Shown: positions 2,501 to 41,237, counted from the whole stretch's first letter. The stretch is DNA of 63,875 bases, filler included, from Porpidia crustulata (GCA_964255105.1; 19 parts of 19 records of this genome joined end to end with filler, not necessarily neighbours in it); one strand, 5' to 3'. The notes: generated by a model not told the origin, from the letters alone. Numbers and translations are program-made.

Positions 2501-2639
2501 TGACAACTGAGGGATTCGAACTTTATTGCGTTAGTCAAGAACAATTCGATCGTGGGTAGTTGACGTACCCCTCGCTCTTTCGAACAGGTAAGATACAGAA
2601 TTCCTGAAACCTGCGCCATAACCACTCGGCCAAGTTGCC
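2501..2639 (-). tRNA. tRNA-Leu(CAG) with a 12-nt canonical 37/38 intron (2591-2602) and a 48-nt spliceosomal-type intron at 53/54 (2521-2568)
   Basis: Minus strand: GGCAACT TG GCC GAGTGGTTAT GGC G CAGGT TT CAG G [AATTCTGTATCT] T ACCTG TTCGAAAGAGC GAGGG [48 nt] TTCGAAT CCCTC AGTTGTC A. Acceptor, D, anticodon and T stems all pair; long variable arm, G37 and A73 fit Leu; mature length 79 nt. Confidence 0.92.
2521..2568 (-). other. Spliceosomal-type (GT-AG) intron inside the tRNA-Leu T arm
   Basis: GTACGT CAACTACCCACGATCGAATTGTTCTT GACTAAC GCAATAAAG: fungal consensus 5' splice site, branch site RCTAAC and 3' AAG; exact removal gives GAGGG-TTCGAAT-CCCTC. Confidence 0.85.
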
Positions 2640-3329
2640 TTTCGACCAAATGGCCCTTAGCTAAAATATATTGTTTTAAACTGAGTAAATGAGTTGCACG
2701 GGTTGTCCAACTCTCTCCTGCATCTCACTCGTTTTCGACATTACCATCTTTCCAAAGCGGTATTTTCAGTGCAAGTGCAAGAGAGAGTACCAAAATTCAC
2801 AATTGCGCGAAATCGTTTCCTAGGCAAACAATTCCGGCTTTGTCACACAGCATCCGACGTATCGCTGTAGACATCGCATTCAAGGATACGGAGGATTCGC
2901 GATTGACTGTAGTATTGTTCAAAGCCGCTGTTGCCGCAGAGAATTGGTCGTATATGACGAGTCGGAACCCATATAACAATCCAACCCTTTCCATGCTACA
3001 AAATTCGCCTCCAGATTGCAGTCACCACCCTTGAGATTCTCGGAAATCTAACCCTTATCCAAGCACCCTTCCTAGCGCACAATCTCGTAGAATCTCCAAC
3101 GCAACCCCTTCGCATCACTACCAAAGCATTAGCATCATATCTCCCCCAACCAACCAACAAACCCGCTCACCTCGCCGCTCAAGCTTAATACAAGCTGAGT
3201 AACCTCTCCGCCTCCCCGCGTCAGAGATCTCAGCATACCCTCCTTGGGACCCAGACCCTCACTGCTCAATAGTCCCCGTCACCCATAAAATCCATCACTT
3301 GCACCCACCGCCTACTCCCCCTTCACTTC

Positions 3330-3429
3330 NNNNNNNNNNNNNNNNNNNNNNNNNNNNNNNNNNNNNNNNNNNNTTAATTAATTAANNNNNNNNNNNNNNN
3401 NNNNNNNNNNNNNNNNNNNNNNNNNNNNN
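3330..3429. other. Artificial contig linker N44-TTAATTAATTAA-N44 (first of 18)
   Basis: Identical 100-nt stop-codon spacer also at 6757, 10179, 13601, 17018, 20412, 23797, 27174, 30537, 33900, 37259, 40612, 43958, 47302, 50632, 53956, 57277 and 60596; the contigs between them shrink from 3327 to 3219 nt. Confidence 0.99.
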
Positions 3430-3724
3430 AAGTGGGGTGTGCAGGGGACCGGAACGTGCACGGGCCCGGGAATACTCCTAAAGGCAGATCAACTTTCAAC
3501 CTTTGACTTTGATCAACCTTCCAGTGCATCTGGTCAATCGCACAATTCGTTGATTCTCATCAACTTGCCAGAGAGCTTCTTGAAATCATCACGTATTTAT
3601 GTGGCGTGGTCTAGGACTACTCGCTTGAACTTGGTCCATCTCTAGTCCAAGTGAATCATCGCAACGCCTTTCAACCCACAAAGCGTTACGATATTTCGTG
3701 GTGCCTGAAATCCTTGGTTCAGCT

Positions 3725-4388
3725 ATGGCAATCGCTAGGTTGCCGCCGTTACTACGTCTCCCTCCTGAAATACGGGAACTGATCTTACGGCCATTCCTAA
3801 CGACGGATGACACTTTACTATGTTCATCCAGAGTTTTCGGAAATCGGGTTCTTGGCTGGAAAACTTACCATGGAGTTCAGCCTGAGCTTATGTTTACTTG
3901 CCGTTTATTGTACCTTGAAGTGCTTCACATGTTTGTTCGGTCGAATGTATTTTCATTTTCAGTACCTCCCACTACAACAACCTTCTTTTGCGTTCGTCAT
4001 GCCCCATACACAAAATCGATAAGAATTCAGATGCTTTGCCGGCACTGGCCCCTTTGGCAGACGTACCTCCGTGAGAATACACCTTTGACAGTGAAGGCGC
4101 TGCATCTTCAAATTCTTCCTCCTATGTCCATCGGCTCGAGGGGCAGCCACGATCATCTTGTTGACCTTCTCAATTTATGTGCATGCGTGATGGATAGTAT
4201 TATCGTAACAGAAAGTGTCAAGGTTGTCATGGCATTTGAAAAAAGGCAGTCAATACGCAGTCAGCAGTTGCAGTCCGTTCTCTAGCATCACAAACACTGA
4301 CGTGCTTTGCAGGTGTGCAAGAGTGCTTATTCAAAGCCTTGGTACCTGGTACGAAGGACAAAACATCATTCTTGGCACTGAAGACTAG
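3725..4388 (+). CDS. Fungal hypothetical protein with F-box-like N-terminal motif
   Basis: LLRLPPEIRELIL...LMFTCRLLYLE...N(V)FSF pattern common in Pezizomycotina F-box-like proteins; probable intron about 4249-4312 (CTGAC...GCAG) before the last exon. Confidence 0.55.
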
Positions 4389-5164
4389 AGTCGAAGCCAC
4401 GAAGTCTTAATTTGACGTCCTGGCACGCCCGATGCTTTAGCCTATACGTCCACAGTACTATTGATAAAATTTCCGGTGCATGGCAAGGAGCGGTCATATA
4501 GGACCCAGAATGCTTTTTACTAGCCTTACGCTGGACAACGGCCTTGTGAGAGTGAGCCCAGGATTTTGTTCATCAGGCGCTGCGCGAAACCTCTTTCGCT
4601 TCCCTGACGGCTTCTGAGATATGGATGCCATGGACAGCAAATTCTGGCTCGTTCTGAGTCGCATCTTGATGGACCCATCCGGAAATTTTAGGCCAGAACC
4701 GACTACTCCATCGTCTCTTTGACCATCCCATAACCATTGAGGTTAATCCAATGCGGGAATGGTATAGATTTATTCTGTAGCTCATAAGAAAACCAGTGTC
4801 TCAGTAGCCTGATTGGTAATGTCGAAGCATTGTTGATTACCCTAACTTTTACCATGAAGAGCCCAGGCGTGCCAGGTTCGCAAAGTCAAACTTGGGGGGA
4901 TCCTTTAAAAGCTTGCCCGTGGATCTCAACCAGCACTTTACGGGATTCTTTGGTGAAACCAAGATGAGGGTGCATATAGAATAAACAATGCATATGGTAC
5001 GCAGACTTTTTGTGACTGAGCGTGGTGCACTAAAAGGCGAACACGGCGCCACAATATTCAGCAAAGAATATCGATAATACCATAATTTACCAAATGCACG
5101 TGGCAAGTTTTCCTTCATGACATGCAGACAAGCATTGTTTACTGCTGAGCGATTGCAACCCTCC

Positions 5165-5986
5165 TTAAGCGCCCCTCTCAAAGACCCTCACTCCCCCATC
5201 TCCACTGACATAGTACAAAACCTCCTTCTCTTCTACCTCATCTGTGTCATCTCCTCCCCTCGTAATCCTCAGAACTCCACTGACATCCCTCGCCGCACCA
5301 GTATCCAATCCTCGCAATCCCATTACAATTCCCGCCTGGTGCATTAATCCCATCACGAATGCTGCATGATCAACTTCAAGCGGAGTATTCCTTGCCTGCA
5401 CAAGTGGGTAGTCTGCAGATGCCGTTACAATTATGGCGTGAACATGCTGTTGGGGGAAAGTATGAGCCGCTTGTTCGAATCTTATGCATTTAATCGTAGG
5501 GGTTCCCACCTCTCGGAGCTCGCAAACCACATCCAGCACCTCCATCGCTTCCACACTTGTAGCCGCAAGTAAGAAATCCAAACCATCCAGCACCAACAAT
5601 ACGCGACAGCCTTCCTCTTGTACCTTCACAATCGCAGCCAGAATCTCTTTCTCCGCTGCAGCAATCCCCCCTTCTCCCATCCCAATTCTCCCTCCTAACC
5701 CATCCACAAAAACGACCTTGTTACCCTTCTGGAAGTCGGTGCCCAATTTTCTTCCCGCACTCCTCCATCCTTCCCAGTCTCTCAGCCAGCTCACCAATAC
5801 AACCTTCGCGTCGCCTCCATCTGCATTTCCTGCGCTCTGATCTCTCAGCGCAGCATAGATGTATCGAAGTACGAGCCAATTCGCTGATGCGTTGAGCACA
5901 GAAGTGAGGAGGCTTAGGGAGCGTGCCTGCGGAAGCGAAGAGAGATGGGTGGATAGGAGAGGAGGGATATGGGGTTGAGAGGGCAT
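5165..5986 (-). CDS. ELP6: Elongator complex subunit Elp6
   Basis: RecA-like fold motifs LLTSVLNASANWLVLRY, VVLVSWLRD, LVLDGLDFL, LDTGAARDVSGVLRI and LYYVSGDGGVRVFERG; one short in-frame intron about 5447-5509. Confidence 0.85.
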   Translation of the reverse strand: MPSQPHIPPLLSTHLSSLPQARSLSLLTSVLNASANWLVLRYIYAALRDQSAGNADGGDAKVVLVSWLRDWEGWRSAGRKLGTDFQKGNKVVFVDGLGGRIGMGEGGIAAAEKEILAAIVKVQEEGCRVLLVLDGLDFLLAATSVEAMEVLDVVCELREVGTPTIKCIRFEQAAHTFPQQHVHAIIVTASADYPLVQARNTPLEVDHAAFVMGLMHQAGIVMGLRGLDTGAARDVSGVLRITRGGDDTDEVEEKEVLYYVSGDGGVRVFERGA

Positions 5987-6425
5987 AGGATGTAGTTGAA
6001 TGAAGAGATTTATGGCGAGGGTAGGTGATGGTGAGTTTTGCGGAGGGCGTCTAAAGACTTGGAAACAAGGGAATGCATCTCCAAGATAACGAAGCTTGAA
6101 AACGGGTACGTCTCAACTCGACCATTTATACACTATGAATGCGACATGACTGTCCGAACTGTCTCCAAAAATCCAAAGAGTCGAATGTCTTGCCCAGCGA
6201 ATATCCCGAGTTTAAAGTAACCAAAAATAAACCCCCCGCTAGGGCTGGACCCTCCCCACACCAAACCCGCTAAGCGAATTTCGACATCACGAACTTCAGC
6301 CCGCAACAGCGAATCCAGCAACGACATCACGACATCCAAACCACAGCAAAGGGTGAGCTATCCTGCCTCCCACCACCATTAGATTACCTTCACTAACCAC
6401 ATCGCCTCAGATACTCTGATCCAAA

Positions 6426-6756
<331 letters not shown>

Positions 6757-7211
6757 NNNNNNNNNNNNNNNNNNNNNNNNNNNNNNNNNNNNNNNNNNNN
6801 TTAATTAATTAANNNNNNNNNNNNNNNNNNNNNNNNNNNNNNNNNNNNNNNNNNNNGAATGAGAGGGTGGGGGAGGTGGTGAGGTGTGCGTGTTGCGAGG
6901 ATTTTTTGGGATGTAGAGGAGTGGTGATTTTCGGATTGAAGATTCAATGCAGATGCGGAATTTTCCGCTTTAGGTTGTATCTAAGAGCGCGTTTTGGGCA
7001 CGGCGTATATTTGGATTCATACGAGTAAAGTGAACATGACAAGGAGCATGTTTGGGTATATAAGACTAACCAGAATTTAAGAAGGTCGGAGAATTGCAAT
7101 TGATATTATAACGAGTGTTTTATTATTCTCAGGCCGATTAGCGGGATATAGAGCGATCAAGCCGACAGCGACAAGCTGCAACTTGTATCGACATCCTCCA
7201 CTAACCATTCC

Positions 7212-7976
7212 TTATGCGCCGAGATACCCATATGCCATGGTCGACACAACGCCCAAGAGCCCACCTGCCATTCCACATGCCATCATCTTCTTGTTGTCCG
7301 GTTTGCTGCCGGTACCTCTCGGTCTCTCGCCCGTGCCCTCATCCACGACGTAATGTCTTGCGAACAGATCGTTTTGGATCCAGAGTAGCTTGTTCCATGC
7401 CGAGAGCACTTCTTTCTTCGTTGCCATGTCTAGTTGGTCCATGCCTAAGACTGTGCTGACGAATATCTCCTCCACGTATCCCAAGAGTAGACCCATGTGC
7501 ATGTATTCCACTCGTAAGTCTGGTCTGTGGATACGATGCTTCAGCCCAGGGACACCGGTGTGTGCGATTCCGACTTTATCCATATATTCCCAGAGTGGTG
7601 AACTCGGAGTCCAGTCTCCATTGTTGAGAATTCTAAGCAGGTATCCCTTCAAAAAATTCTTTTGGCGCATGATGTGGGAGTGGTTCAAGCTGAGGTCTTG
7701 GGCTTTGGTAGGAGCAGGACCAATCTCATGGCGATCACCTTGGCGGGGCACAAATGCCATGGCAGTAATGTCGTATGTGAGGAGCTTGGTATAGACCATG
7801 TCTAGAATGCTCGGGAGGAGAGGGACAAGAAGAGGATTTGAAGCATTGATTGCGGCACCGTCACTGGGGGTGAAGGAGAGAAAAGAAGTGGTATAGGATA
7901 AACGACTGGAGACGTCTAAGAGCGACAGCGAAGAGATGTGATTCATCGGACTACGGACTTTCTCCATGGTGGCCAT
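7212..7976 (-). CDS. Protoglobin/globin-sensor domain protein with C-terminal hydrophobic tail
   Basis: SFLSFTPSD...VYTKLLTYDITAMAF...YMDKVGIAHTG...LRVEYMHMGLLLGYV...AWNKLLWIQNDLFARHY match fungal protoglobin-like proteins. Confidence 0.8.
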   Translation of the reverse strand: MATMEKVRSPMNHISSLSLLDVSSRLSYTTSFLSFTPSDGAAINASNPLLVPLLPSILDMVYTKLLTYDITAMAFVPRQGDRHEIGPAPTKAQDLSLNHSHIMRQKNFLKGYLLRILNNGDWTPSSPLWEYMDKVGIAHTGVPGLKHRIHRPDLRVEYMHMGLLLGYVEEIFVSTVLGMDQLDMATKKEVLSAWNKLLWIQNDLFARHYVVDEGTGERPRGTGSKPDNKKMMACGMAGGLLGVVSTMAYGYLGA

Positions 7977-8556
7977 TTTTTCTTGAGAGTGAAATTGAGA
8001 AAAGGAAAGGACTTTGGAAGAGATTTACAGAAAGGCTCGGAGAGACTACAAGTACCAAAAGGAAAAGGAGGGGTTAGTTGAATGTGGCAGTCATGTTAGT
8101 TGGGTCGAATATTTGCGCCTACATCTGACATATTTGAGATGAATAGAGTTCGCGGGTACAGTCAGTGAAGCTAGATAGATACCGGCACGACTGGCACGAC
8201 TGGGCAGGGAGACAGGGTGGCAGGCCATATCTTGCTGGCCATCAACATCTCCGTGGAGCAGAAGATGTTGATAAAGAGCGTTTCCTCGCGGTACAAGCCT
8301 GGATGTATAGTTTGACGACGTCTGTGTCCATTTGTACTGCACACAACGCATGCGAATTCTTTGATGAACAATTCAGAAGGTTTCCACAGTGTCAAGTTTT
8401 AAGCCGCAGCGGGAATGGCTTTAAACGGACACTGTACGTAATTTAGCGCTAGGCTGCTTTTAGCGATATGGAATTAGCTCGTTAATGGCCAACTCCACTA
8501 CGAATCCATTCCTCGTTCATTACACACTCATCTATCTTTACAGACCGGGCACTGCG

Positions 8557-9878
8557 ATGAACACGCAGGCACTTACCCTACGCCTTCAGTTGCTCTCTGA
8601 TGCTCACAAACAAACCGTACAGCTCATCAGCCGACTCTCCAAACTACCAGCTCACCTAGGTTCAAGTTCTTCGAATCCAGACGCAGCTGATGCCCGTCAG
8701 GAGCTGAGTGCCGAGATACACCAGGGCTTGAAAGAGCAAGACGAGGATCTTGAGCTCTTACGTCAAGAAATTGAAGACCAGACTAATACTGTGAGTTGGA
8801 CGTCTGCTGCTCGGAGAAGGGAAAGCGAACGGGAGCGAGATCAAAGTGGGCTGGCAGCGCAGGTTGCACGACTTGGAGACGATCTAAAGATGTCAGACTA
8901 CACAGCACTCAATAACAATTAATGAACCGCTGACATGTAATGGTTAGTGCCCGTATACAATTTCGGAAAGCCCAGCTACAAGCGAAACGTAACGCCGAAA
9001 CCGCCAAGCGAAAGGAAAGAGGGCTTCTGTTTGCAAGCGTCCAGGAGGGTAACAGCACATCTAGCTCTGGCCGGCGAAAAGGAAAAGAATTGTCTCAGGA
9101 CGAACTGATACTCAACGCCTCGAGTGACGTAACAGCTGCACTGCGAAGGACACATGATTTAATGCAACAGGAGCTCTCACGAAGCCAATTTGCACAGGAC
9201 ACACTAGTGCAATCTACTGCAGCTCTCTCGACCCTCTCAGAGTCTTACGATAATCTTGACACACTCCTGTCGTCGTCGCGTTCTCTTGTTTCCACCTTGA
9301 TACATTCAAACAAATCGGATACATGGTATCTCGAGACTGCTTTCTGGCTCCTTGTCACTACCATCTCCTGGCTTGTATTCCGTCGTATTCTTTACGGTCC
9401 TGGGTGGTGGTTACTTTACCTGCCAACTAAGCTGATGTGGCGTTTGACCTCCGCAATCCTGAACGTCTTTGTAGCACTTTTAGGCGCAGCAGGGGCAACA
9501 AAACAGAGCGCCGCACTTTCCAACGCCTCGGAGCAAATCTCCACGAGTTTGGTCGTGCAGCCCAGCGCGACACGCGGCGTTATACCCACCTTTGAGGCAA
9601 GTATGTCAGCGCCGTCGATTAATGTAGGTGGCGGAGGCAAAGGTCGGCCGCCTCCGGAGTCTCCTCAGAGCGAAGACAAAACTCTATCCGAGCAGGTCGG
9701 TGAGATGGTAGAAGCGAGCCAAAAGGCTAAAGATGTGAAAGTTGAGAGCTCGCAGCCGGCAGCCGCGCAAGGAACGGTGCTGAGGGAACGAAGAAATGAT
9801 GAGGCACCCAATCCGAAGAAGAGGATGTGGGACGAACCACCGCCACAGGAGGAAGCGAGGCAAAGGGATGAGCTATGA
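8557..9878 (+). CDS. SEC20: SNARE Sec20 (ER-Golgi retrograde transport)
   Basis: Two ORFs joined in frame by intron 8892-8947; Sec20 domain ASSDVTAALRRTHDLMQQELSRSQFA...KSDTWYL followed by a TM segment ending WLVFRRILYGP. Confidence 0.88.
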
Positions 9879-10278
9879 TATTGTCACCAATCAAGATACC
9901 CATAAGTATATAATCACAATCAACGTTTGCGATCGGACTTACATTCCGTGCGTTCCAGTTACACGAAGCAGAGCCACAAAATTATGCATTTATATACTAT
10001 ACCGCTAACCTCATTCCGCAAAGGTGGACAGAAAAGCTTTCGTTTCATCGCCAAACATCAATGTGCTGGGTATTGTATTCTTGCTCCCCCTTTGCACACA
10101 AAATCTCCTAGTCCATCTCTGAGCGCTCTTCCTACATATCATCATCCCCACCACAACTGCCCCTCCAAACCCCAACCANNNNNNNNNNNNNNNNNNNNNN
10201 NNNNNNNNNNNNNNNNNNNNNNTTAATTAATTAANNNNNNNNNNNNNNNNNNNNNNNNNNNNNNNNNNNNNNNNNNNN

Positions 10279-11792: not shown

Positions 11793-12241
11793 ACTGAGTG
11801 CCTGGGAAGGAAATACACGGCTTTATTTCTCGCTCAAAATTGACTCCGCTGTCTTATTCTGAGCATATATCTGAGCTCTCATAACAATAGGGAATTATGC
11901 TTTTATGATGGTAGTTGACTGTAGCACTTATCACAGCGCAAGCGAAGGGCTTTGCCTCGGGTTGGTTCAAGGTGGATGTTTCCTGGATGCGATGCAGCGC
12001 CAGCCACTAAATATCATGGAGGTCTCGATTTACGCATTAAATGGAGAGTGAAAGGATTAGATATGATAATCATGGTGCTTGTTTTAACGCCTGCCAGTAG
12101 ATAGGTAATTATATAGACTGTGCCATAGAATTGAAGCATGGAAGCTTGCTGATTGGTTTGGCGCAAGCGCGGAGTTGAGCCGCATGCAAGCTTAAAAAAT
12201 ATAAATCAAGTCTCAAAATAGCTTCATTGTGGACGAATTCC

Positions 12242-13600
12242 ATGCGATCGTTACGGCCCTTACGGCCTCTTCAACAACTCCATCCTCCTTGCAGCCATCA
12301 ACATTACAATGTGAGGTCTCGACCAATCCAGTCAAGATTCTATCAGCCGGGATCGCGAGGTTCCAAAAATAAACACCGCTCCCAAGTCGAAAAAGCTCTT
12401 TTGACTTCCACCGAGGACAACCCCGATCACCGCACACTGGGCACCGAATATGAACTCTTCAGTACTCACGATTCGAGCCCCGGCTCTCCACTCTTTCACC
12501 CCAATGGCGCCCTGATATTCCAGAAATTACAGTCTTTCCTGCGCGCCCAATACCCCTCCTTCGGCTTTCGCGAAGTCATAACACCAACCATTTACAAAGA
12601 CTCGCTCTGGAAACAGTCGGGCCATTGGGACAACTATCGAGATGACATGTTTTCCGTATCTACGCGCCGTCAGCGTCCAGCCCTTGCTGCGAGGGAGGAA
12701 GCTGCTACGTCACTAGGTGCTTCGCGCACTTCCCGCTCTGCAGGAGTTCTGTTCGAAGGGTTTCAAACAGGAAAGATCATTGAAGATTACGATGACACCC
12801 ACAAAGACAACGACAATTTACAAGGCGAAGGCTATGGTCTGAAACCAATGAATTGCCCAGGTCATTGTCTACTTTTCAAGAGCCGTAAGCTCAGCTACCG
12901 AGAACTCCCCATCCGCTACGCAGATTTCAGCCCTCTACATCGGAGCGAGGCTTCTGGGTCGTTGAGTGGACTGACTCGTGTGCTCCGTTTTCACCAGGAT
13001 GACGGGCACATCTTCTGCCGACCGATCCAAGTGGGCTGTGAAATTGAAAGACAATTAGAATTCATCAACATGGTTTACAAAACCTTTGGCATGAACATTC
13101 ACAAAGTCGTACTGAGCACGCGGCCTTTGGACGGGAAATACATTGGCCAAGTCGATGAGTGGGCAAGAGCAGAAGAGCAGCTGAAAAGCGCCTTGATGGA
13201 CAGCGGACTAAGCTGGGAATTCAACGAAGGCGATGGCGCGTTCTACGGCCCTAAAATCGACATCATCCTCGCCGACTCCGACGGTAAGCAGCACCAAACC
13301 GCCACCATCCAACTCGACTTCCAGCTCCCCAAGCGCTTTGAACTTGAATATGAGGCTCCCGCTCCAGAACAAGAGCGCCTTGGCCTCAAGACCTCCGACC
13401 CAACCCTGCTCGAGCAAAAAGGCATGGTCGTGCCCGTCATGATCCACCGCGCCATCCTCGGCTCCTTTGAGCGCTTCATGGCTCTACTGATCGAACACCA
13501 CAAAGGCCGCTGGCCCTTCTGGCTCTCCCCTCGCCACGCCATTGTCCTCTCGGTCGGCGACAATCCCAAAGTCCATGATTATGCCTCCACCCTCTGCGAC
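12242..13600 (+). CDS. MST1: Mitochondrial threonyl-tRNA synthetase, 3'-truncated
   Basis: DHRTLG, LWKQSGHW, LKPMNCPGHC, GLTRVLRFHQDDGHIFC, GDGAFYGPKID, TIQLDFQLP, IHRAILGSFERF and WPFWLSP motifs; Arg-rich presequence and no N-terminal editing domain. Confidence 0.93.
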
Positions 13601-32302: not shown

Positions 32303-33763
32303 ATGACTTCTAGCTCAGATCCCGAGATGGAATACCTGACAGCGTCCTTTGACCCTTCATCACTCACCGTTCCAAAACTACGAGGCATACTAATGTCCCA
32401 CGACATCCCCTACCCAGCCTCTGCCAAGAAGCCGCAGCTTATCGATATCTTTACTCAGCAACTCATTCCGAAGTCGCGTAGGATACTCGCCGCTCGATCG
32501 AGAACTAGGAGAACTAGCAAGGGTATAACGGATATGCCAAGTAGCCAAGAAGGAACGGTAAACGGGGATGAAGATGACAATGTTAGCTTGATGCCACCAC
32601 CACCAACTCCAGGGCGAATTAAGAGGAAAGGGAAAAGCTCATCCGAAGACGCCGAGCCGTTAAGCAGTCGAAGGATTGCTAGTGGCCGAAAGAGCTCTTC
32701 GAAGCATGCTCGGCCATCTGACACAGAGACAGACCCGGATTTAGAACCTAAGGGACCAATAGTACGTAAAACTCGGAAGAGTGAGGTTACACCTATCGTC
32801 AAGGCCGAAGAAGCAGACGATGTACCAGTGCGCCCTTCACTGAAGGAGAGCCCCTTCAGTCATGAGAATCCCTTTCAAAGCGGTAGTTCGCCACTGCTGC
32901 CAGGTGAAAGCAGGAGAAGGAGCGCTGGCACCAGCAATGACCGCAGGAAAAGCACATCAAGGAGACGGAAGACCGAGGGAATTGGCGGCCCTGAATTGTC
33001 CAGAACCAAGACATTCGAAGTCCCTGTTGCGACTCTAAAGCGACCCAAGGCCCGGGCTGAAGTTGAACAGGATGACGGTGTTGAAGTGGGAGAGGATTTT
33101 ACCCCAGAAGAGCAGCTGGAATTGGTGAGAGCACGTGCTGCGAATGGGGATCTTGATATCCTTCCGCCCCGCAAGAAGAAACGGCCACGTAAATCTACTA
33201 CAATTCCGAAATCTGCGCCTTGGGTGGTTTTCATGACACTGTTATCAGGATATGCCTTGTGGTTTCGACAAGAGAAACTTCAGATGGGCTACTGCGGGAT
33301 TGGTAGGAGTTCCGATGCACTTTCGAACGTACAATTACCTGATTGGGCGAGCGCACTACAACCTACATGTGAATCATGCCCGCAGCACGCGTATTGCTAC
33401 GAAGGGATGGCGACACGATGTGAGCAGGACTTTGTGCTCAAGCCACATCCTTTATCTCTGGGAGGCTTGATACCACTACCACCGACTTGCGAGCCTGATG
33501 GCGAGAAAGTACGAAGAGTCAAGGCAGTGGCCGATAGGGCAGTTGAAGAGTTGCGCGAGAGAAAAGCCAAGTTCGAATGTGGAAGTCTTCTTGATGCGCA
33601 AGGAAAAGATCCCTCAACCCTAGAGATCCCTGCCGAAACCCTGAAAATGGAAGTCTCGAAAAAGCGCCGGAAAGGCATGTCGTCTGCCGAATTCGAAGAC
33701 CTCTGGAAAGGTGCCATTGGCGAAATCCTTGGTCGCGAGGAAGTCATCCATTCTGTCAACAGG
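32303..33763 (+). CDS. SRC1: Inner nuclear membrane LEM/HeH protein Src1/Heh1-Man1 family, 3'-truncated
   Basis: HeH domain FDPSSLTVPKLRGILMSHDIPYPASAKKPQLIDIF; TM; luminal GYCG, CESCPQHAYC, CEQDF and PTCEPD motifs; donor GTAAAC at about 33763. Confidence 0.9.
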
Positions 33764-33999
33764 TAAACTTGCCCCTTCCCCGTTCCCTCCTCCCTTGCAC
33801 CTCCACCTTATCTCCTTTGAATTCCCCCGCCTCCCGATCGAAACCATTACACAACCAATCTGACACATAGTCCCCCACTAACCAGCTTCCCCCAAGAAGN
33901 NNNNNNNNNNNNNNNNNNNNNNNNNNNNNNNNNNNNNNNNNNNTTAATTAATTAANNNNNNNNNNNNNNNNNNNNNNNNNNNNNNNNNNNNNNNNNNNN

Positions 34000-34236
34000 A
34001 TCACTCTGCGTGGGCGATGGAGTCTTCTGTTTAAGCTGACTAAGCACTTTTTCTTTCTTCGGTGTAGTACTGAATCAGCTCGGTGTTACGCTTCATCCAT
34101 TGTTTCAGAATCGAGAACGAGGTCTCAATCGGATTGAAATCAGGTGAGTAGGGAGGCAGCTTTACCAACAGCACTCCTGCTGCCTCACAAAGCTGATCCA
34201 GTTCGATTGATTGATGAATCCTGGCGTTATCCATCC
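34000..34236 (-). mobile_element. Tc1/mariner (IS630-like, DDE_3) transposase C-terminal fragment
   Basis: MDNARIH...LLVKLPPYSPDFNPIETSFSILKQWMKR contains the second D and the catalytic E of the DD34E-type triad. Confidence 0.88.
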
Positions 34237-35969
34237 TACAAGGCCTGATCCTTGAGCGCGCAGGGCCCGTCGTACAGTACCTGATGCGGTGGAACAATCC
34301 CGTCTCTTGTCGGTATCTGTATCAAGATTGTTTCCTCGTCGCTGGGATACGCCGTGACGTGTTCTTCCTTGCTATTGCCAACCACATCCGTGGCAATGAT
34401 AAGGCCGTGCTTGATGCCGCCCTTGATCTACGCCTCGTGTTTTCCGGAGGGCAGGGCGATATGAGCGAGACCGGTGAGAAACATGCCGTATCTATTGGTG
34501 AATGATAATTGGTGTTAGCTCATCGAGGCTAGGAGGAATAGAAGCTTCGAAGGCAAGAAGAGAGGTGGGAAGTTCTGGGAGGATTCTACGCACTGTACGA
34601 TTGGTGCATGATGTCCAGGAGGGAAAAACTTGGGCGGCGCAACGATGTAGCTCATGTTCGCAATGTCCCCTTGTTGTAGCTCTAATGCGCCAGGCAATCC
34701 GCTTTGACTGGTTGTCTGGAATGGGTCGTCGAGCTGTCAACACTCCTTGGTACTGAGGCCGTCCTGATGAGCAACGGCGGTCAGATTGAGGGTCGAAGGA
34801 CCTTTGTAAGCGGCCACACTGGGTGATAACGGTGAAGCTATAGCCGGTGGAAGACACAGAACAAAAGCCGTTGCCACTGGGAAAATGTAAAGGAGCATAG
34901 TGGGTGAGTAAGACACGTTGTCTTGGATTTTTTTCGAGACGATAGAAGTGAAAGGTCATAAGACCGCCGAAAGACAAATATCAAGGTCACAGAGGAAGCA
35001 CAGTCATACGTTATTGACAAAGCCGCATGACTCCGGTATTGCAGAGTTAGCAAGTTCGGCCATTTAGGCTCCCACACGGAGGATGATCATCTTTCATGGC
35101 TTGAAGTTGAGGGTATGAATCTACGCAGCGCAGGGAGGTCCTATTCTAGACCGCGGCCAACTCTATCGTTGTGCATTTCGAGTGTTTCTTCATGTCCCCG
35201 TTCGCCGTTACAGACAAATTCGGAAATTTAATGGGCTGCAGGCACCGAGTATGGGTGTCAGTGAAGCCAATTATTCCGAGAACCGTCTGCGAGTTCTAAA
35301 AGCGGAGATATTTTTGCACAACGCGTCTCCTGCGTTCGCTCCACCAATCGGCTCGTTTCCAAAACTTCAAAACTCCGGTCCTCGCCAAGTGAACTTTCAC
35401 CTTTGGCTTCCAACTCCGCATTTCGACTCTGGAGAATTGCAGGTTCCGTCGAGGGCTCAGTGTGCTTGATAAGGCGTTTTTGAGTAAACGAAACATCGAC
35501 CTGTCAGATCCCAGGAAAAAAAGACTGGTGTAGATTCTTTGCTTAGCTGCGTCGTTGAATACGTCGGATAGAGGGAGAATAGCCACTGAGTAGATAAGCT
35601 TAATGACGGGATGCGAAACAAGATCGTCAGTCTCTACTGTCTTTTCAGGTTCCCTCGGTCCCGCGCTCTACTTCAGTCATATTCTTCTATCACCCTATTT
35701 CTGACTACTTGAGAGTCGAGTATGAGGGTAGAACGTGATCCTGGGAGATGAAACTGTGCCAATCATTCTGACCGCTTCAGATTAATAAAGACGTGGTGCC
35801 GCCAAGGTTCTCGTTTTTGAGCTATTCTTCCAAGCAACCTTCGATTTGCTCTCCTCCTCCTGTTCGTTTCAAGCCCGCTTACGATACAAGGACTAGTCCT
35901 GTCTACTTTCTCCTCGCGTCTGGTTTTCTGTGTTTCTCTGAATTCTTGCCTTCGTTCTTTGGACAACAA

Positions 35970-37047
35970 ATGGCAATGCAGCTCTCCACAAAGTTGGTCA
36001 GAGTACTGCTACTCAGCTGTGTGATCCTCGTGAGCCACGCCGTTTCTCTTCCTAGGCAGACAGCTTCCATCAAAGATACTAGTTATGTCGAAAAAGATGA
36101 TCATTGATCCAATTTACCTTCTATCGCGACGGATTCCCGTTCAGAGCATAGTACTGTTACATTGAGGAACGACATTTATATCATCGAAGAAATACGTCTA
36201 GAACAATCTGTCAACGAAACGACCTTTTCGACGTTGAGCAGCGTTGAAGTCTATTTCATTGCTCAGGAACAGCTGACGCACAGTCGCGTCTTCATCGATC
36301 TCAATGAATCACGTTAATGCCGTCGCTGTTGATGATAAAATATACAATGATCTGACTCTCGACAAATTCTAATTTGCTTTTCTCGACTGCTACGTTTACG
36401 ATTCAGAAATCGATCACTGAACGACGCTGACATCGATGCTCAAGAAGCAAGCTCGAGAAAGTGTCGCAGTAGAGATACACGAAAGATTCATCTATCTAGC
36501 GACTGAAATGCGCTCCCTTGACGACTCTTTCAATGATTTGCAAGACATCGTAAACATCTTCACTTCGTACGATATCAAAACCGAACTCTGAACATCGCTA
36601 CTGAATCTCTCGACATCGCGCGATCACGCCGAAATCGTCATGATTAAACACATCATATACGTGTTCGACGAACGCATTTACGAGCAAGTCAACGTACGAA
36701 ACATCATCTACGCTTTGAATCTTCGCTCGTCAGCAGTCGAATGAACTCGCAAAATCGACCTGCTCACTACCTGCGGTAGTTTTTCAACAGGCATGATCGA
36801 CAAAGTGATGTACACATTTGACGACGAAGGAAAATCGACTTCGAACTTCAACGACGTCTACAACGAAACCAAGTCGTACGAGACTGTGACAGATACGTGA
36901 ATCAAGTTGGCGCTCATGACGATCCCGAGACATGGCACGGCGGCGATTTTGGTGGATGGGGGAATATATATTCCTGGCGGATCGATTGCCAAGGGCGAGG
37001 AGCCCGTGGACGCTTTCACTGTGTTTAGGCCTTGTGGGGCAGGGTAG
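35970..37047 (+). pseudogene. Secreted Kelch-repeat (beta-propeller) protein gene destroyed by GG->GA / CC->TC mutation
   Basis: Signal peptide, then Kelch repeats with GG dipeptides changed to EE/DE/DD (IYIIEE, YVFDER, YTFDDE) and TGA at Trp positions 36105, 36418, 36589 and 36898; last repeat intact (PRHGTAA..IYIPGG). Confidence 0.88.
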
Positions 37048-38297
37048 GATGGCTTGAATGGCCATGATTGGGGGATGAGACCGTTTTTAAGCGCACTTTG
37101 CCTTATCAGCTTCTTGGTTCAGCAGCGACACACTGAGGATTGGAAAGAGTCGGAATGTACATGAATAGGATGTGCAGTTCTTCTCTACATAATTTCCTTT
37201 CGACCAAATTACACCGTCATCCTTTTTCCCTTTCCTTACATCTCTTGCTCCCAACTAGNNNNNNNNNNNNNNNNNNNNNNNNNNNNNNNNNNNNNNNNNN
37301 NNTTAATTAATTAANNNNNNNNNNNNNNNNNNNNNNNNNNNNNNNNNNNNNNNNNNNNGAGTTGAGATGGTATTCATTTATCTTGTATATTTTTTTGTGT
37401 AGGGTGAGAGTTTTAGACAAAATGAAACATGGGATGACCACTGATCCGTCCATTTGACGTAGTAGACTCTTTGTGATCCGGGAAGCAACTTAAATGCGAA
37501 GGTTAGGCAGCTCCATCAATCGGGCATGTCGTGGTCCTCTCATCGTTAAAGGACGGGGCTGAATGTGGTGTCCGATGGAGTATCTAGGATTGTTTTTGGT
37601 CGAACGTAATACCTGTTCTTATGTTAGAATAAATGGCATAGGACAACGGATTTCATGGAGGTAAAGAATGGTCATTTATTCTGTCGGGAAGCTCGCGCCA
37701 ATTGGGCACGCTGGGGTACAAGTACTCTAGTGTGGTAGTCAAAATATCTTATTCCATGGCTCTTCAAATCATTAGACTTACCGATCTTTCCTGAGAGTTA
37801 CTTTTTGTTCTCACGGATTAGCTTATGACAAGTCCAATCTGGTGCGATTGTTTTTTGCGCAAGCTCTCCGACTATTTGGTGCGTGAGACATGAGGCTCCA
37901 TTGGTCGATGATGCCCATGGAGCCACGAGAAGTCCCATCGTTATCTCCAACGCAAAAATATTATATCCATCGAGCCGAATTAGCCGTCAAATGGTTGCGA
38001 TTCAAAGTCACGGCGACTGTCGTTGTCAAACAGCGATCGCTCGATGTTCCATTGCAGCCTCGGCAGGCAGCCTTGGATTTCTGTAGCCTTGGATGTTGCC
38101 TAGCTGAACTTGAGAGTCATAAATAACGTTGTGGAACATTGATGTCTCTTCCTTCTAATGTTCTCAATTGACATACTTCATTCTGCTGTGATAGATATAC
38201 AATCTATGTTCTGCCACTTTCGCAGTCGTTTGAATCTTTGTGACAGAAGACCTACAACCTGAGGGTCATTGCATCGTTTAGCCAATACAGCTACGAC

Positions 38298-40611
38298 ATG
38301 GCGGAAGAGAAGATACACAAGCAGGAATACTTAATTCGTGGTCTGGCCACCAGATCAGTGACTTTATACCCTGCGCGAGCTCATGTTATTCGAGACATCG
38401 ACGAAGTCGCCCTCAAGGTAAAATCCAGTTCTTCTCAGACCATAGATGAATATGTACTGATTGAAGCTTGACAGCCCGGCGCAAATGAAATCACAATTTA
38501 TGGCCTCACTCCGACTGCCGACGAGAGCTCTATCAAGGTTGACGGCAAAGGATCAGCTACCATTACTGATATGACCGTTGATCTCGTTACGAACCGGGAA
38601 ATCTTTGAGGACGCCTATCCATCTGATTCGGAAGATTCAGATGATTCGGATGCCGATACCAGCGAATCGGATACAGAGCCAGAAGGTATAGCGATCTTGA
38701 GCAAGAAGAGAAAAGAGCTTGAAAATGCGCTCAAAGAATCACGGGCAGAACAGAATACCGGAGCGGGTCAGTTGACAATGCTCGAGAATTATGCGCGTAG
38801 CTTGTCTACTTCTCGGCCAGACAATCTCAGAGATTGCATGAGCGCCTACGGCATCGAACGCAAAAAGGCTTTTGATGTCTACAGTGCTGGGGGAAACAAC
38901 GCTGTGGAAATAATGCAAGAATTTGAGAAGCTCGCCAAGCAAGAGAACAAGATACACGCCAATGTGATGAAGGAAAAAGCAAAGTTCCTGAAAGCAAAAG
39001 TCAAGGAGAAGAACAAGAAAGAACGAGTGAGAAAGGAAAAGATGGAGGCAAAGAGGCGCCTTCAAGCAGAGCGAATCCAATTCTGGCCGAAGAAAGTGTA
39101 CCGGGTCGTTTTGAGCCTCGATACCAACTCCGACTTGACGCCTGGATCTTCTCGTCGAGGATCTATCGACAGCGTGGTCAAACCTGCTCTTTCACCCACT
39201 CCAATGACTTTAGATGCTTCAACTTCGGAACAAGGCTCGGCTTCTTGCTTTGTCTCTCTGTCGATCTCTTACATCACCTACTCAGCTTCCTGGTCTCCTC
39301 GGTACGATCTCAGCCTAAACACAACTACGAGGTCCGGTTTGATCACCTATCGTGCGGAGTTCTACAATGCGACCTCGGAGACCTGGCGTGATGCAAAGGT
39401 CATCCTTTCCACATCTCAGACCTCATTCCAAGGACTTGGTGAGCCCATTCCAAGCATGCAACCGTGGTATATCCGGCTAGAGAAGGTTTGGGGTAATAAC
39501 AATAGCTTCGTCAAAAACGATATGTCTCAGGGTTTGTACAGTCGCAGTGAAGAAGAATCCAAGCACAAAGCCCGTGATCAGTTTGCCGGCAACCCCAGCC
39601 AGAACCGCGCCGAGCTATTCGGGCTGAATGGTCACGATCGGGCAAAGTTGTATCCAGCATCAGGCCAGTCGCAGTCGGATTATCAGGTGCAACTGATGTT
39701 GCTCGAGAAACAAAACAAGAAACGCCTGTTGATGGCACGTGAGGAGCAGTTGCAGGCCGCACCCAATGTGGCTATGAAGGCTCCACAATCAAGGTTATTC
39801 GCGCAGCAGCCGCAGCAGCAGCAGCAGCTTCAACAGCAGCTGTCCTGGGCACAGAATCTCAGCGCTGGCGGTGGTCTTTTTGGATCCTCGACTGGAGGGG
39901 CAGGCAATTCAGTGCTCTTGAACGCCTCTAATCAAGCTCGAGCTCAGTCATCTAGTGCACTTGTCAACAACGCCAATACCCAAATCGAAGGCGAGATCGA
40001 CTTCTCCGCCGACGGAGAAGACGCACCTACCCTCACCGTCCCCGACCCCACTCTCGCTTTCCAAGAGTCCACCTGGGAAGAATCCGGCCTCACGGCCACC
40101 TACGACGTCCCCGGCACGCGGACGATCCCGCCCTCCCCAACCACCCGCCGGCACAAGATCGCCTCCATCGCCCTCAAGGACATCCAGCTCTCCTACGTCA
40201 TCGTCCCCAAACTCCGCAGCGCCGCCTTCCTCAAAGCCCGCCTCCGCAACACCTCCTCCACCACGCTCCTCCGCGGCGCCGCCGGCCTCACCCTCGACGG
40301 CACCTTCCTCGGCAACACGACCCTGCCGCGCTGCAGCGCCAACGACGCCTTCAGCCTCAGCCTCGGCGTCGACCCGGCCGTCACCGTCACCTACGCCGCC
40401 CCGACGGTCCGCCGCAGCGAATCCGGCATCTTCGCCAAGGAAGGGTCCTGCGTCTACACCCGCGCCGTCACCGTCGTCAACACTAAACCCCATACGCCCA
40501 TCGAGGGCCTCGTGCTCGACCAGGTTCCCGTCAGCGAGGACGAGAGGCTCAAGGTCGAGATTTTGCAACCCAAGGGACTGATGCGCGAGGAGGGGTCCGG
40601 GAGCGTGAGGG
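38298..40611 (+). CDS. DUF4140/DUF4139 (F37C4.5/MuiA-like) protein, 3'-truncated
   Basis: SVTLYPARAHVIR, SSIKVDG, ASWSPRYDL, TWRDAKVILST, SLSLGVDPAV and DQVPVSEDERLKV motifs; intron 38418-38474. Confidence 0.88.
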
Positions 40612-41067
40612 NNNNNNNNNNNNNNNNNNNNNNNNNNNNNNNNNNNNNNNNNNNNTTAATTAATTAANNNNNNNNNNNNNNNNNNNNNNNNNNNNNNNNN
40701 NNNNNNNNNNNGGGTGGGAGATGGGGGTGGTGAATGTAATGAGTATCAAAAGCGTGACTCCATCTTGTAATTGGTGTGTGAAATACCAAATGAATCTGTA
40801 AATCTCTGGCGGTATAATCGAACATGCGGATTGATTTGTGAGCGTATACGTTTTGATTACGGACAGCAACGTGACCATCGGTGGTGTGACGAAAAGGGCC
40901 GGATCTCGGAAAAATTCATGTACATTGATAGAGACCTGGGGATGCTCATATGAAGAGGAGATGGGTAAGGGAGCTGCGCGCGCGGGTGATCAGTTGAGTT
41001 GATATTATATCGAGCTATATATGTTCGAGTTGGGGATCGTAGTCATTTTTCGCAATCAAGTAAATTG

Positions 41068-41086
41068 TATATATATATTATAAAAA
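41068..41086 (+). promoter_or_regulatory. Upstream TATA element of tRNA-Gly
   Basis: TATATATATATTATAAAAA, with TATAAAAA starting 30 nt upstream of the mature tRNA 5' end. Confidence 0.6.
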
Positions 41087-41108
41087 GAAGACATTCTACC
41101 ATGTAGTA

Positions 41109-41237
41109 GCGTTAGTGGGTAAGTCACAATGTCTACATTACCACAATGTCTTCGCTAACAGCCACAAAGTTTAGTGGTAAAATTCGTCGTTGCCATACTG
41201 TATCGACGAGCCGGGGGTTCGATTCCCTCCTAACGCA
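41109..41237 (+). tRNA. tRNA-Gly(GCC) with a 51-nt spliceosomal-type intron at 10/11 (41119-41169) and a 7-nt canonical 37/38 intron (41196-41202)
   Basis: GCGTTAG TG G [51 nt] TTT AGTGGTA AAAT T CGTCG TT GCC A [TACTGTA] T CGACG AGCC GGGGG TTCGATT CCCTC CTAACGC A; perfect acceptor and anticodon stems; 71-nt mature fungal tRNA-Gly. Confidence 0.94.
41119..41169 (+). other. Spliceosomal-type (GT-AG) intron inside the tRNA-Gly D stem / A box
   Basis: GTAAGT CACAATGTCTACATTACCACAATGTCTTC GCTAAC AGCCACAAAG: perfect 5' splice site, branch site and 3' AAG; exact removal restores TGGTTTAGTGG. Confidence 0.88.

What the first reader, a model, noticed from the sequence alone, without database searches (positions are those of the whole stretch)
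2501..41237. Both tRNA genes found carry such introns: possible genome-wide invasion of tRNA genes by spliceosomal introns
Seen: the only two tRNA genes I found in 19 unrelated contigs both have a GT-AG intron. Both insert at a G|TT site (G|TTC and G|TTT), both end in AAAG, both have the branch motif 9-10 nt from the 3' end, and neither contains four consecutive Ts. AAG acceptors also occur in mRNA introns here (GH125 last intron, an AYR1 intron), so they appear usable. Inference: this is a systematic class rather than an accident, perhaps gained by reverse splicing into abundant RNAs as proposed for rRNA and U6 introns. The A-rich 3' ends may reflect selection against Pol III oligo(T) terminators. 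The sample is only two genes, and the span given covers separate contigs.
Basis: inference. Interest (0 to 1): 0.9.

Follow-up and report, generated by a model that had tools for sequence, protein, structure and literature searches.

The report
mRNA-type introns inside fungal tRNA genes
Two tRNA genes of a lichen-type fungus, and the same glycine tRNA gene in related fungi, are interrupted by short introns that look like ordinary mRNA introns, a kind not described for tRNA genes and invisible to standard tRNA finders.

Summary
The window is 19 unrelated ~3.3-kb pieces of a Lecanoromycetes-like fungus. It holds two tRNA genes, Leu(CAG) at 2639..2501(-) and Gly(GCC) at 41109..41237(+). Each carries a short anticodon-loop intron and a 48/51-nt GT..CTAAC..AAG insert at a non-canonical site (T-loop 53/54; D-stem 10/11). 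Of 43,436 GT..AG excisions, 5 restore a tRNA, all at these loci.

A search with exon sequence only found the same tRNA-Gly in other fungi.
- It carries such inserts at three further sites or hosts (6/7 and 54/55 in a Dothideomycete-like fungus; 53/54 in another Lecanoromycete).
- Two paralogues have 71/71 identical exons but diverged inserts.
- An orthologous locus shows one insert present versus absent.
- An intron-less tRNA-Leu in another organism lacks exactly the 48 nt.

No insert has a bulge-helix-bulge, inverted ends or copies elsewhere.

Best reading (0.7): working tRNA genes whose transcripts need the spliceosome, as fission-yeast U6 does. No RNA data were available, so splicing is inferred. 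"Genome-wide invasion" is only partly supported (5 of 8 distinct fungal tRNA loci). The oligo-T selection idea is not supported. Eight full-text searches found no paper describing this. The scan noted a similar case before on other DNA (an alga's tRNA-Ala, e1-4091646; not tested here).

The parts
2501..2639 (-). tRNA-Leu(CAG) gene, 139 nt in the genome, 79 nt after removal of both inserts; type-II tRNA with an 11-nt variable arm and discriminator A73
   Evidence: Rfam sub-threshold hit covering model positions 1-71 with two inserts; ARAGORN after excision; anatomy
2521..2568 (-). 48-nt spliceosomal-type insert between G53 and T54 (T-stem/T-loop junction): 5' GTACGT, branch ACTAAC with the A 10 nt from the end, 3' AAG
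   Evidence: A contig of run X2 skips exactly these 48 letters (joint 2520->2569, CT..AC on the + strand). No BHB
2591..2602 (-). 12-nt canonical anticodon-loop (37/38) intron of tRNA-Leu (boundary ambiguous by 1 nt)
   Evidence: ARAGORN i(38,12); the length differs in the X2 and X3 homologues (table 4)
2489..2493 (-). T5 run 8 nt after the tRNA-Leu 3' end, followed by a T4 run: Pol III terminator-like
2662..2672 (-). AT-rich TATA-like element about 33-23 nt upstream of tRNA-Leu position +1
   Evidence: function inferred
41109..41237 (+). tRNA-Gly(GCC) gene, 129 nt in the genome, 71 nt after removal of both inserts; the spliced product is identical (71/71) to that of L010
41119..41169 (+). 51-nt spliceosomal-type insert between G10 and T11 (D-stem): 5' GTAAGT, branch GCTAAC with the A 11 nt from the end, 3' AAG; contains a 10-nt direct repeat
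   Evidence: absent from the tRNA-Gly genes of L005, L007, L009, L010, L011; no convincing BHB
41196..41202 (+). 7-nt canonical anticodon-loop intron of tRNA-Gly (register ambiguous by 1-2 nt)
   Evidence: ARAGORN i(38,7). Homologous genes have 9-22 nt at the same place. The review PMC4090602 gives 6-133 nt for canonical eukaryotic tRNA introns (passage)
41250..41285 (+). T5, T7, T7, T7 and T6 runs starting 13 nt after the tRNA-Gly 3' end: Pol III terminator-like
41068..41086 (+). TATA-like element 41-23 nt upstream of tRNA-Gly position +1
   Evidence: function inferred

Best explanation
These are working nuclear tRNA genes of filamentous ascomycetes that have acquired spliceosomal (U2-type, GT-AG) introns at non-canonical positions in the tRNA body, in addition to the ordinary anticodon-loop intron.

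Proposed pathway (inferred):
1. The gene is transcribed from upstream of exon 1, most likely by RNA polymerase III. The evidence is an internal A/B box, a TATA-like element at about -30 to -45, and a T5-T7 run just downstream.
2. The spliceosome removes the 48-54-nt intron using its GURNGU 5' site, its CURAY branch site, and an AG 10-11 nt downstream of the branch A.
3. Only then can the acceptor, D or T arm form. This lets RNase P and RNase Z trim the ends and lets the tRNA-splicing endonuclease and ligase remove the short 37/38 intron.

The introns were gained independently at several sites in different lineages of at least two classes, Lecanoromycetes and Dothideomycetes. What is shown here is the gene anatomy, its recurrence and the selection on it. 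Actual splicing, the polymerase and the order of steps are inferred.
For: (1) Excision restores the tRNA. Precise removal restores complete cloverleaf tRNAs in 5 distinct genes with 7 inserts. Controls: 5 of 43,436 window excisions give a tRNA, all at the two loci. 8 of 1,489 motif-based constructs over 186.5 kb give one, all at the tRNA loci. 0 of 10 pattern matches in the prokaryote and viral collections restore a tRNA.

(2) Splice signals. All 7 inserts have GT(A/G)NGT, CTAAC or CTAAT with the branch A 10-11 nt from the end, and a terminal AG. They are 48-54 nt long, inside the 47-102 nt range of this organism's candidate mRNA introns. The chance rate is 4 in 855,484.

(3) Selection. Paralogues L001 and L004 lie in unrelated flanks and have 71/71 identical exons. 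Their inserts are 46/54 and 41/55 identical, with the 5' splice site and branch site conserved and the interior and length changed. The anticodon-loop intron is 17/23 identical and the upstream 60 nt 37/70. At intron-like identity, 71/71 has probability about 1e-7.

(4) Orthologous presence/absence. L007/L009 (no GT-AG insert) and L010 (insert at 53/54) share flanks at about 73% identity over 2.7 and 1.1 kb. They differ in the acceptor stem by a compensatory pair change.

(5) Precise absence. A contig of another organism (run X2) has the tRNA-Leu lacking exactly the 48 nt.

(6) Independent assemblies. Each insert-bearing allele is seen 100% identical in two differently prefixed records: L001=L002, L003=L004, L010 and L015.

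(7) Pol III features. T5-T7 runs lie 1-13 nt downstream of all 5 genes, AT-rich elements lie at -49 to -23, and no insert contains TTTT. Where an insert follows G53 or G10, its terminal G recreates the G of the B box or A box next to the 3' exon (read from the sequences).

(8) Precedent. Spliceosomal introns exist in Pol III-transcribed U6 and in U1, U2, U5 and rRNA genes (PMC5855946, passages).
Against: - There is no RNA evidence. No RNA run holds the locus, so splicing, the lariat and the mature tRNA are not shown.
- The polymerase is not shown. A TATA-like element would also serve Pol II.
- For L001/L004 (intron after position 6) and the window's tRNA-Gly (after position 10), a start site placed at the usual distance from the A box would fall inside the intron. 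Transcription would have to be positioned by the upstream element instead, which is inferred.
- In L001/L004 the 54/55 insert splits the B box, and the 3' part lacks one T.
- Intron-less tRNA-Gly loci exist in related fungi (L005, L007~L009, L011). Redundant intron-less copies in the same genomes therefore cannot be excluded.
- The sample is small: 8 distinct fungal tRNA loci, plus the Leu homologues seen only as laid contigs.
Confidence: 0.7

Rival explanations
1. The inserts are removed, but not by the spliceosome. The tRNA-splicing endonuclease, or an unknown nuclease/ligase pathway, recognises them, as for the non-canonical tRNA introns of Cyanidioschyzon merolae, nucleomorphs and archaea.
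For: Non-canonical tRNA introns in D and T arms that are removed by or attributed to the endonuclease are known, and some are spliced by an unknown route (PMC4090602, passages). These genes already depend on that machinery for their 37/38 intron.
Against: No bulge-helix-bulge is present. In every register that gives the same product, the central helix has 0-3 of 4 pairs and never combines with good flanking helices, for 7 of 7 inserts. That rival does not explain why all 7 inserts carry GTRNGT, CTAAY at 10-11 nt and AG, a combination with a chance rate of 4 in 855,484. It also does not explain why the paralogues conserve exactly those signals. My BHB test is a simple pairing count and not a dedicated BHB finder.
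Confidence: 0.08
2. The insert-bearing genes are dead copies: tRNA pseudogenes disrupted by insertions that merely resemble introns. Intron-less paralogues do the work.
For: The review notes that insertions in one of many synonymous eukaryotic tRNA genes are usually taken as pseudogenes (PMC4090602, passage). Intron-less tRNA-Gly genes exist in related fungi. No expression data are available.
Against: - Exons are 71/71 identical between paralogues whose inserts and flanks have diverged.
- Spliced products are identical (71/71) in the window and in L010 despite different insert sites.
- A compensatory acceptor-stem change separates the orthologues.
- Terminators and upstream elements are kept in all 5 genes.
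- All 7 inserts have the full splice-signal set.
- Both tRNA genes found in 62 kb of this organism carry an insert.
Confidence: 0.05
3. Spliceosomal removal is right, but the precursors are made by RNA polymerase II, alone or as part of a longer transcript. The tRNA is then released by RNase P and RNase Z, so no Pol III-spliceosome coupling is needed.
For: TATA-like elements lie at -49 to -23. A very short 5' exon (6 or 10 nt) is easier to reconcile with a capped Pol II transcript. Spliceosomal introns are described as a feature of Pol II transcripts (PMC12530127, passage). The tRNA-Leu lies about 370 nt upstream of a GH76 ORF on the same strand.
Against: - T5-T7 runs lie 1-13 nt after every gene, and TTTT is absent inside all inserts.
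- The A and B boxes are kept or recreated next to the 3' exon (read).
- Pol III-made U6 is known to carry such introns (PMC5855946, passages).
Confidence: 0.15

Closest known systems
mRNA-type (spliceosomal) introns in small nuclear RNA genes: U6 of Schizosaccharomyces pombe and other fungi (Pol III), and U2, U5 and U1 of Rhodotorula hasegawae
   Same: A GT-AG intron with a branch site sits inside a short, highly structured, non-coding RNA gene. U6 is a Pol III transcript. Insertions are lineage-specific and at several sites (PMC5855946, passages).
   Different: The host is a tRNA, which is not part of the spliceosome, so proximity to the catalytic centre cannot explain the gain. The tRNA genes also carry a second intron of another class, and up to two spliceosomal-type introns per 71-nt gene. 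tRNA is not in that review's list of ncRNA hosts.
Spliceosomal introns in the rRNA genes of lichen-forming and other ascomycetes (Bhattacharya et al. 2000; seen only as a citation in PMC6652019, and PMC5855946)
   Same: The same fungal groups are involved: the window's best named relatives are Lecanoromycetes. Spliceosomal-type introns lie in a non-Pol II, non-coding, abundant RNA.
   Different: The host RNA is different (Pol I rRNA). I did not read that paper, so details are recalled only.
Non-canonical tRNA introns of Cyanidioschyzon merolae, nucleomorphs and Archaea (bulge-helix-bulge, endonuclease-dependent)
   Same: Introns lie in the D arm, T arm and acceptor stem. There are several introns per tRNA gene. 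The genes are invisible to standard tRNA finders (PMC4090602, passages).
   Different: Those introns are defined by a BHB, or are 3-24 nt long, and lack GT-AG and branch signals. Here there is no BHB, the full spliceosomal signal set is present, and lengths are 48-54 nt.
Introner-like elements of Dothideomycetes and other introners (cited in PMC5647799, passages)
   Same: They are a possible source of new introns. One of the lineages here is Dothideomycete-like, a class in which active intron gain is described.
   Different: Introners are multi-copy and often have target-site duplications. The 7 inserts have no similar copy in the 197 kb held except their own paralogue, no inverted ends and at most 1-3 nt of boundary repeat. 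The sequence held is far too little to exclude a family.
   Same: It makes the same kind of claim in an unrelated eukaryote.
   Different: It is in another genome and is an unchecked AI note, not tested here. It is a single gene, with no comparative evidence seen by me.

Membership tests
Spliceosomal (U2-type GT-AG) introns | 5' splice site GURNGU | tested here: met
   7 of 7 inserts: GTACGT once, GTAAGT four times, GTGAGT twice
Spliceosomal (U2-type GT-AG) introns | Fungal branch-site consensus CURAY a short distance upstream of a 3' AG | tested here: met
   CTAAC four times and CTAAT three times, with the branch A 10-11 nt from the 3' end in 7 of 7. 3' ends are AAG four times, CAG twice and TAG once. 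AAG is used in 4 of 15 candidate mRNA introns of the window
Spliceosomal (U2-type GT-AG) introns | Length within the organism's own intron range | tested here: met
   48-54 nt, against 47-102 nt for the 15 candidate mRNA introns
Spliceosomal (U2-type GT-AG) introns | Precise presence/absence between homologous genes | tested here: met
   The X2 contig skips exactly 48 nt. L007/L009 and L010 are a syntenic locus without and with the 53/54 insert
Spliceosomal (U2-type GT-AG) introns | Removal by the spliceosome through a lariat, shown on RNA | not testable with these tools
   No RNA run is listed for the locus
Nuclear tRNA gene (Pol III type 2) | Complete cloverleaf with anticodon after removal of the inserts | tested here: met
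   ARAGORN calls Leu(CAG) and Gly(GCC) after excision. Intron-less homologues score about 53 bits with Rfam RF00005
Nuclear tRNA gene (Pol III type 2) | Internal A and B boxes and a downstream oligo-T terminator | tested here: inconclusive
   T5-T7 runs lie 1-13 nt downstream in 5 of 5 genes. The boxes were read by eye. They are intact or recreated by the insert's terminal G in the window genes and L010. The B box is split with one T missing in L001/L004. The consensus used was recalled, not computed
Endonuclease-type (BHB) tRNA introns | Bulge-helix-bulge (3-4-3) at the exon-intron junctions, or position 37/38 | tested here: not met
   0 of 7 inserts form it in any register that gives the same product. 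Positions are 6/7, 10/11, 53/54 (twice) and 54/55. The separate 7-22-nt inserts at 37/38 do fit this family by position
Introner-like / transposon-derived introns | Several similar copies in unrelated genes; target-site duplication or inverted ends | tested here: inconclusive
   No similar copy beyond the paralogue, TIR length 0, boundary repeat 0-3 nt. Only 197 kb was searched
Group I / group II self-splicing introns | Conserved ribozyme structure of hundreds of nucleotides | tested here: not met
   The inserts are 48-54 nt. Rfam in permissive mode reports no intron family in the window or the loci

The most novel reading that the evidence does not exclude
Filamentous ascomycetes of at least two classes, Lecanoromycetes and Dothideomycetes, routinely pass tRNA precursors through the spliceosome. 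Spliceosomal introns have repeatedly colonised tRNA genes at many positions (acceptor stem, D stem, T loop), up to two per gene, alongside the classical endonuclease intron. The textbook separation of 'tRNA introns' from 'spliceosomal introns' then breaks down. Pol III transcripts other than U6 would be spliceosome substrates, and current tRNA gene catalogues of these fungi would be systematically incomplete.
Probability: 0.55. Interest if true: 0.9.

Novelty: new variant of a known kind. Interest (0 to 1): 0.85.

Why it matters
Eukaryotic introns are taught as separate classes with separate hosts. A 2025 paper still describes spliceosomal introns as belonging to mRNAs and other Pol II transcripts, and tRNA introns as unrelated (PMC12530127, passages). 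The 2014 tRNA-intron review never mentions the spliceosome. The 2018 U6 review lists U6, U2, U5, U1 and rRNA as the ncRNA hosts of spliceosomal introns.

If confirmed on RNA, tRNA genes with spliceosomal introns would matter in four ways.
- They add a new host class.
- tRNA maturation would depend on two splicing machineries in sequence.
- They give a clean natural system for studying intron gain. The exons are very short and fully constrained, the insertions are dated by orthologue and paralogue comparison, and the host RNA is not part of the spliceosome. That bears on the reverse-splicing, introner and abundance hypotheses.
- Annotation is affected. ARAGORN and Rfam miss or under-score these genes, so apparent gaps in fungal tRNA sets may be artefacts.

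Tried and rejected
- Whole-genome scan: no genome is held for the window, and the records behind the relatives' loci cannot be searched.
- RNA evidence: no RNA holder is listed for the locus. The three runs laid are contigs of unrecorded kind.
I used a gap-free exon pattern instead.
- BHB, inverted ends, target-site duplications and multi-copy similarity: none found.
- Further tRNA or ncRNA genes in the relatives' flanks: none, whether by ARAGORN, by motif-based 1-3-intron excision, by unrestricted single excision (59,254 constructs; the only other junction hits were edge artefacts at intact genes), or by permissive Rfam. Introns in 5S, U6, SRP or RNase P genes could therefore not be examined.
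- A general 53/54-insert pattern in the prokaryote and viral collections gave 10 chance matches, and none restores a tRNA.
- Taxonomy of pieces 1 and 13 through the protein atlas: not answered. Composition alone is a weak substitute.
- T-run depletion and AAG enrichment relative to mRNA introns: not significant.
- Two of the five excision hits, cuts on the opposite strand at locus A, are alternative cuts giving a poorer, shortened tRNA. I rejected them by inspection.
- Literature: eight full-text searches found no paper describing spliceosomal introns in tRNA genes. Subscription journals are largely outside that library.

Full report
WHAT THE WINDOW IS
The 63,875 bases are 19 unrelated pieces of about 3.3 kb, joined by N44-TTAATTAATTAA-N44 spacers. 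No whole genome is held. A GH38 alpha-mannosidase on piece 17 has its best named relatives in lichen-forming Lecanoromycetes (Hypocenomyce scalaris 83%, Lasallia pustulata 82%), with unnamed proteins up to 92%. Pieces 1 and 13, which carry the two tRNA genes, are unremarkable in composition (GC 0.51 and 0.46 within a range of 0.46-0.53; tetranucleotide r 0.69 for both, range 0.62-0.82). Both are held by the same run X1. That they belong to one organism is likely but not proven.

THE OBSERVATION
ARAGORN and Rfam at gathering threshold find no tRNA. Rfam in permissive mode gives two sub-threshold tRNA matches. One is at 2639..2501(-), 26.5 bits, with inserts of 15 and 55 nt in the anticodon loop and T loop. 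The other is at 41168..41229(+), 28.2 bits, and lacks its 5' part.

Removing 2568..2521(-) (48 nt) and 41119..41169(+) (51 nt) lets ARAGORN call two genes:
- a type-II tRNA with anticodon CAG (Leu; discriminator A) and a 12-nt 37/38 intron;
- a tRNA-Gly(GCC) with a 7-nt 37/38 intron.
A review gives 6-133 nt as the range of canonical eukaryotic tRNA introns (PMC4090602, passage).

The 48-nt insert lies between G53 and T54. The 51-nt insert lies between G10 and T11. Both start GTA(C/A)GT, carry CTAAC with the branch A 10 or 11 nt from the end, end in AAAG and lack TTTT.

IS IT CHANCE?
- Of 43,436 GT..AG excisions (30-130 nt, whole window, both strands), 5 produce a tRNA across the junction, and all 5 are at these two loci. 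Besides the two exact cuts there is one register variant at locus B and two opposite-strand cuts at locus A, which give a shortened, poorer tRNA.
- Only 4 of 855,484 random 48-54-nt segments of the window carry GTRNGT, CTRAY 8-13 nt from the end, and AG.

THIS ORGANISM'S mRNA INTRONS
A frame-joining scan gave 15 candidate mRNA introns, against 1 hit in a reversed-sequence control. They are 47-102 nt long. Acceptors are CAG 5, TAG 4, AAG 4 and GAG 2. The branch-to-end distance is 5-23 nt, and TTTT occurs in 1 of 15. At least one candidate, inside the uninterrupted GH38 ORF, is probably false. The tRNA inserts therefore look like ordinary introns of this organism, and AAG acceptors are common, including the last GH125 intron. 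For the same reason the lack of T-runs is not distinctive (0 of 7 against 1 of 15; p = 1).

RELATIVES
One metagenome scan used 26 nt of exon sequence only (D loop to anticodon), so it did not presuppose any insert. It found 17 matches in 15 loci.

Five loci (L006, L008, L012-L014) are dense arrays of intron-poor tRNA genes of an unrelated organism. The other ten are fungal and collapse to six distinct genes:
- L001=L002 and L003=L004: tRNA-Gly with a GT-AG insert after position 6 (acceptor stem), a second one between T54 and T55, and a 19/22-nt 37/38 intron.
- L010 (contains L015): an insert at 53/54, the same site as in the window's tRNA-Leu.
- L005, L007~L009 and L011: only the 37/38 intron.

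With the window's two genes, that makes 5 of 8 distinct fungal tRNA loci with spliceosomal-type inserts. There are 7 inserts in all. They represent five host/site combinations, which I count as independent: Gly 6/7, 10/11, 53/54 and 54/55, and Leu 53/54.

ARAGORN finds none of the insert-bearing genes. Rfam does not report the two-intron genes even at E <= 1, and gives L010 31.3 bits against about 53 bits for intron-less genes.

WHO THEY ARE
The Ars2 ORF of L001 is closest to Dothideomycetes (Vermiconidia calcicola 75%, Saxophila tyrrhenica 75%, Oleoguttula 70%, Friedmanniomyces 70%), with Lecanoromycetes near 58%. A kinesin ORF of L010 has Lecanoromycetes (Caloplaca aetnensis 65%, Gyalolechia 61%) as its best named hits, with unnamed proteins up to 80%. 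The phenomenon therefore spans at least two classes of Pezizomycotina.

EVIDENCE FOR FUNCTION
- Paralogues. L001 and L004 share only about 226 bp, the gene itself, in otherwise unrelated contigs. Their exons are 71/71 identical and their two inserts 46/54 and 41/55. The 5' splice sites, the branch sites and the 3' region of the first insert are conserved, while the interior and the length differ. The 37/38 intron is 17/23 identical and the upstream 60 nt 37/70. At the inserts' level of identity, 71 unchanged exon positions have a probability near 1e-7.
- Same product, different sites. The window's tRNA-Gly and L010's give the same 71-nt product although their inserts sit at different sites.
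- Orthologues. L007/L009 and L010 share flanks at about 73% identity over 2.7 and 1.1 kb, so the locus is orthologous. One lacks and one carries the 53/54 insert. They also differ by a compensatory pair change in the acceptor stem.
- Precise absence. Laying contigs of other runs on piece 1 shows, in run X2, a 5,078-nt contig with unrelated flanks that carries the tRNA-Leu. It has a joint skipping exactly 2521-2568 (CT..AC on the + strand) and 9 extra letters in the anticodon-loop intron. It is an intron-less genomic homologue.
- A weaker case. In X3 a loose end continues from exon 3 directly into exon-2 letters, with a different anticodon stem. It rests on 25 letters.
- Independent assemblies. 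Each insert-bearing allele is seen 100% identical in two differently prefixed records, which argues against assembly error.

RIVAL MECHANISMS
- Endonuclease removal. No insert forms a bulge-helix-bulge in any register that yields the same product: the central helix has 0-3 of 4 pairs and never has good flanking helices.
- Mobile elements. The inserts have no inverted ends, at most 1-3 nt of boundary repeat, and no similar copy in the 197 kb held other than the paralogue.
- Self-splicing introns. The inserts are far too short, and Rfam reports no intron family.
- Pattern control. A general pattern for a 53/54 insert found 8 matches in the prokaryote genome collection and 2 in the viral one. None restores a tRNA on excision.

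TRANSCRIPTION SIGNALS
All five insert-bearing genes have a T5-T6 run starting 1-13 nt after the 3' end, and AT-rich TATA-like elements between about -49 and -23.

Reading the sequences against the A-box and B-box consensus as I recall it:
- An insert that follows G53 or G10 ends in a G that recreates that base next to the 3' exon.
- In L001/L004 the 54/55 insert leaves the 3' half of the B box one T short.
- For the inserts after positions 6 and 10, a start site at the usual distance from the A box would fall inside the intron. A working gene would need the upstream element to set the start. I infer this; it is not shown.

HOW IT MOST LIKELY WORKS
The gene is transcribed by Pol III (probable) from upstream of exon 1. 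The spliceosome removes the 48-54-nt intron. The body then folds, the ends are processed, and the endonuclease and ligase remove the 37/38 intron.

The precedent is the spliceosomal intron of Pol III-made U6 in fission yeast, together with introns in U1, U2, U5 and rRNA genes (PMC5855946, passages). [quoted passage not shown]

The gene anatomy, the recurrence and the selection are shown. Splicing, the polymerase and the order of steps are inferred, because no RNA run was available.

COMPARISON WITH WHAT IS KNOWN
Eight full-text searches found no paper describing spliceosomal introns in tRNA genes. I also read passages of seven papers:
- The 2014 tRNA-intron review does not contain the word stem 'spliceosom'.
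- A 2025 paper treats the two intron classes as unrelated and assigns spliceosomal introns to Pol II transcripts.
- The 2018 U6 review's list of ncRNA hosts lacks tRNA.
The library lacks most subscription journals, so the absence is not proof. An earlier, unchecked note of this scan reports a similar single case in an Ostreococcus-like alga (e1-4091646).

VERDICT
The interpretation as a recurrent class of spliceosomal-type introns in tRNA genes is well supported by comparative evidence. 'Genome-wide invasion', origin by reverse splicing and selection against oligo-T are respectively untested, untested and unsupported. I rate it a new variant of a known kind (spliceosomal introns in ncRNA genes, with a new host class), of high interest, pending RNA proof.

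Noticed in passing
L006, L008, L012, L013, L014 (whole loci): Metagenome contigs of an unrelated organism hold extremely dense tRNA gene arrays: 18 tRNA genes in 2.2 kb and 27 in 3.0 kb, almost all without introns. Sequences resembling the start of a 5S rRNA lie between some of them.
   Followed up: no
L001:9915-9938(+), L004 (- strand, same register), L010 (- strand, about 25-8 nt upstream of the tRNA): A block directly upstream of tRNA-Gly exon 1 (TTTCCATCCAATCAGGA) is conserved between the two paralogues, whose further flanks are unrelated. It resembles the upstream block of the Lecanoromycete locus L010 (TTTTCATCAATCAGAAG). It may be a conserved leader or start-site element.
   Followed up: partly
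window 41125-41151 (+): The 51-nt insert of the tRNA-Gly gene contains a 10-nt direct repeat (CACAATGTCT, twice, 17 nt apart). Its meaning is unknown.
   Followed up: no
window spacers, e.g. 3330-3429: Pieces are joined by N44-TTAATTAATTAA-N44. This is an artificial joiner with stops in all frames and not biology.
   Followed up: yes
window 2501-2639 (-) and 302-2131 (-): The tRNA-Leu gene lies about 370 nt upstream of a GH76 ORF on the same strand. In run X2 a GH76 homologue and a tRNA 5' half lie about 10 kb apart on one contig, so the linkage is not conserved.
   Followed up: partly
window 12245-12304 (-): A sub-threshold Rfam match to the bacterial ssnA cis-regulatory RNA (23.3 bits against a gathering score of 37.3) lies inside a fungal class-II aminoacyl-tRNA synthetase ORF. 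It is most likely chance.
   Followed up: no
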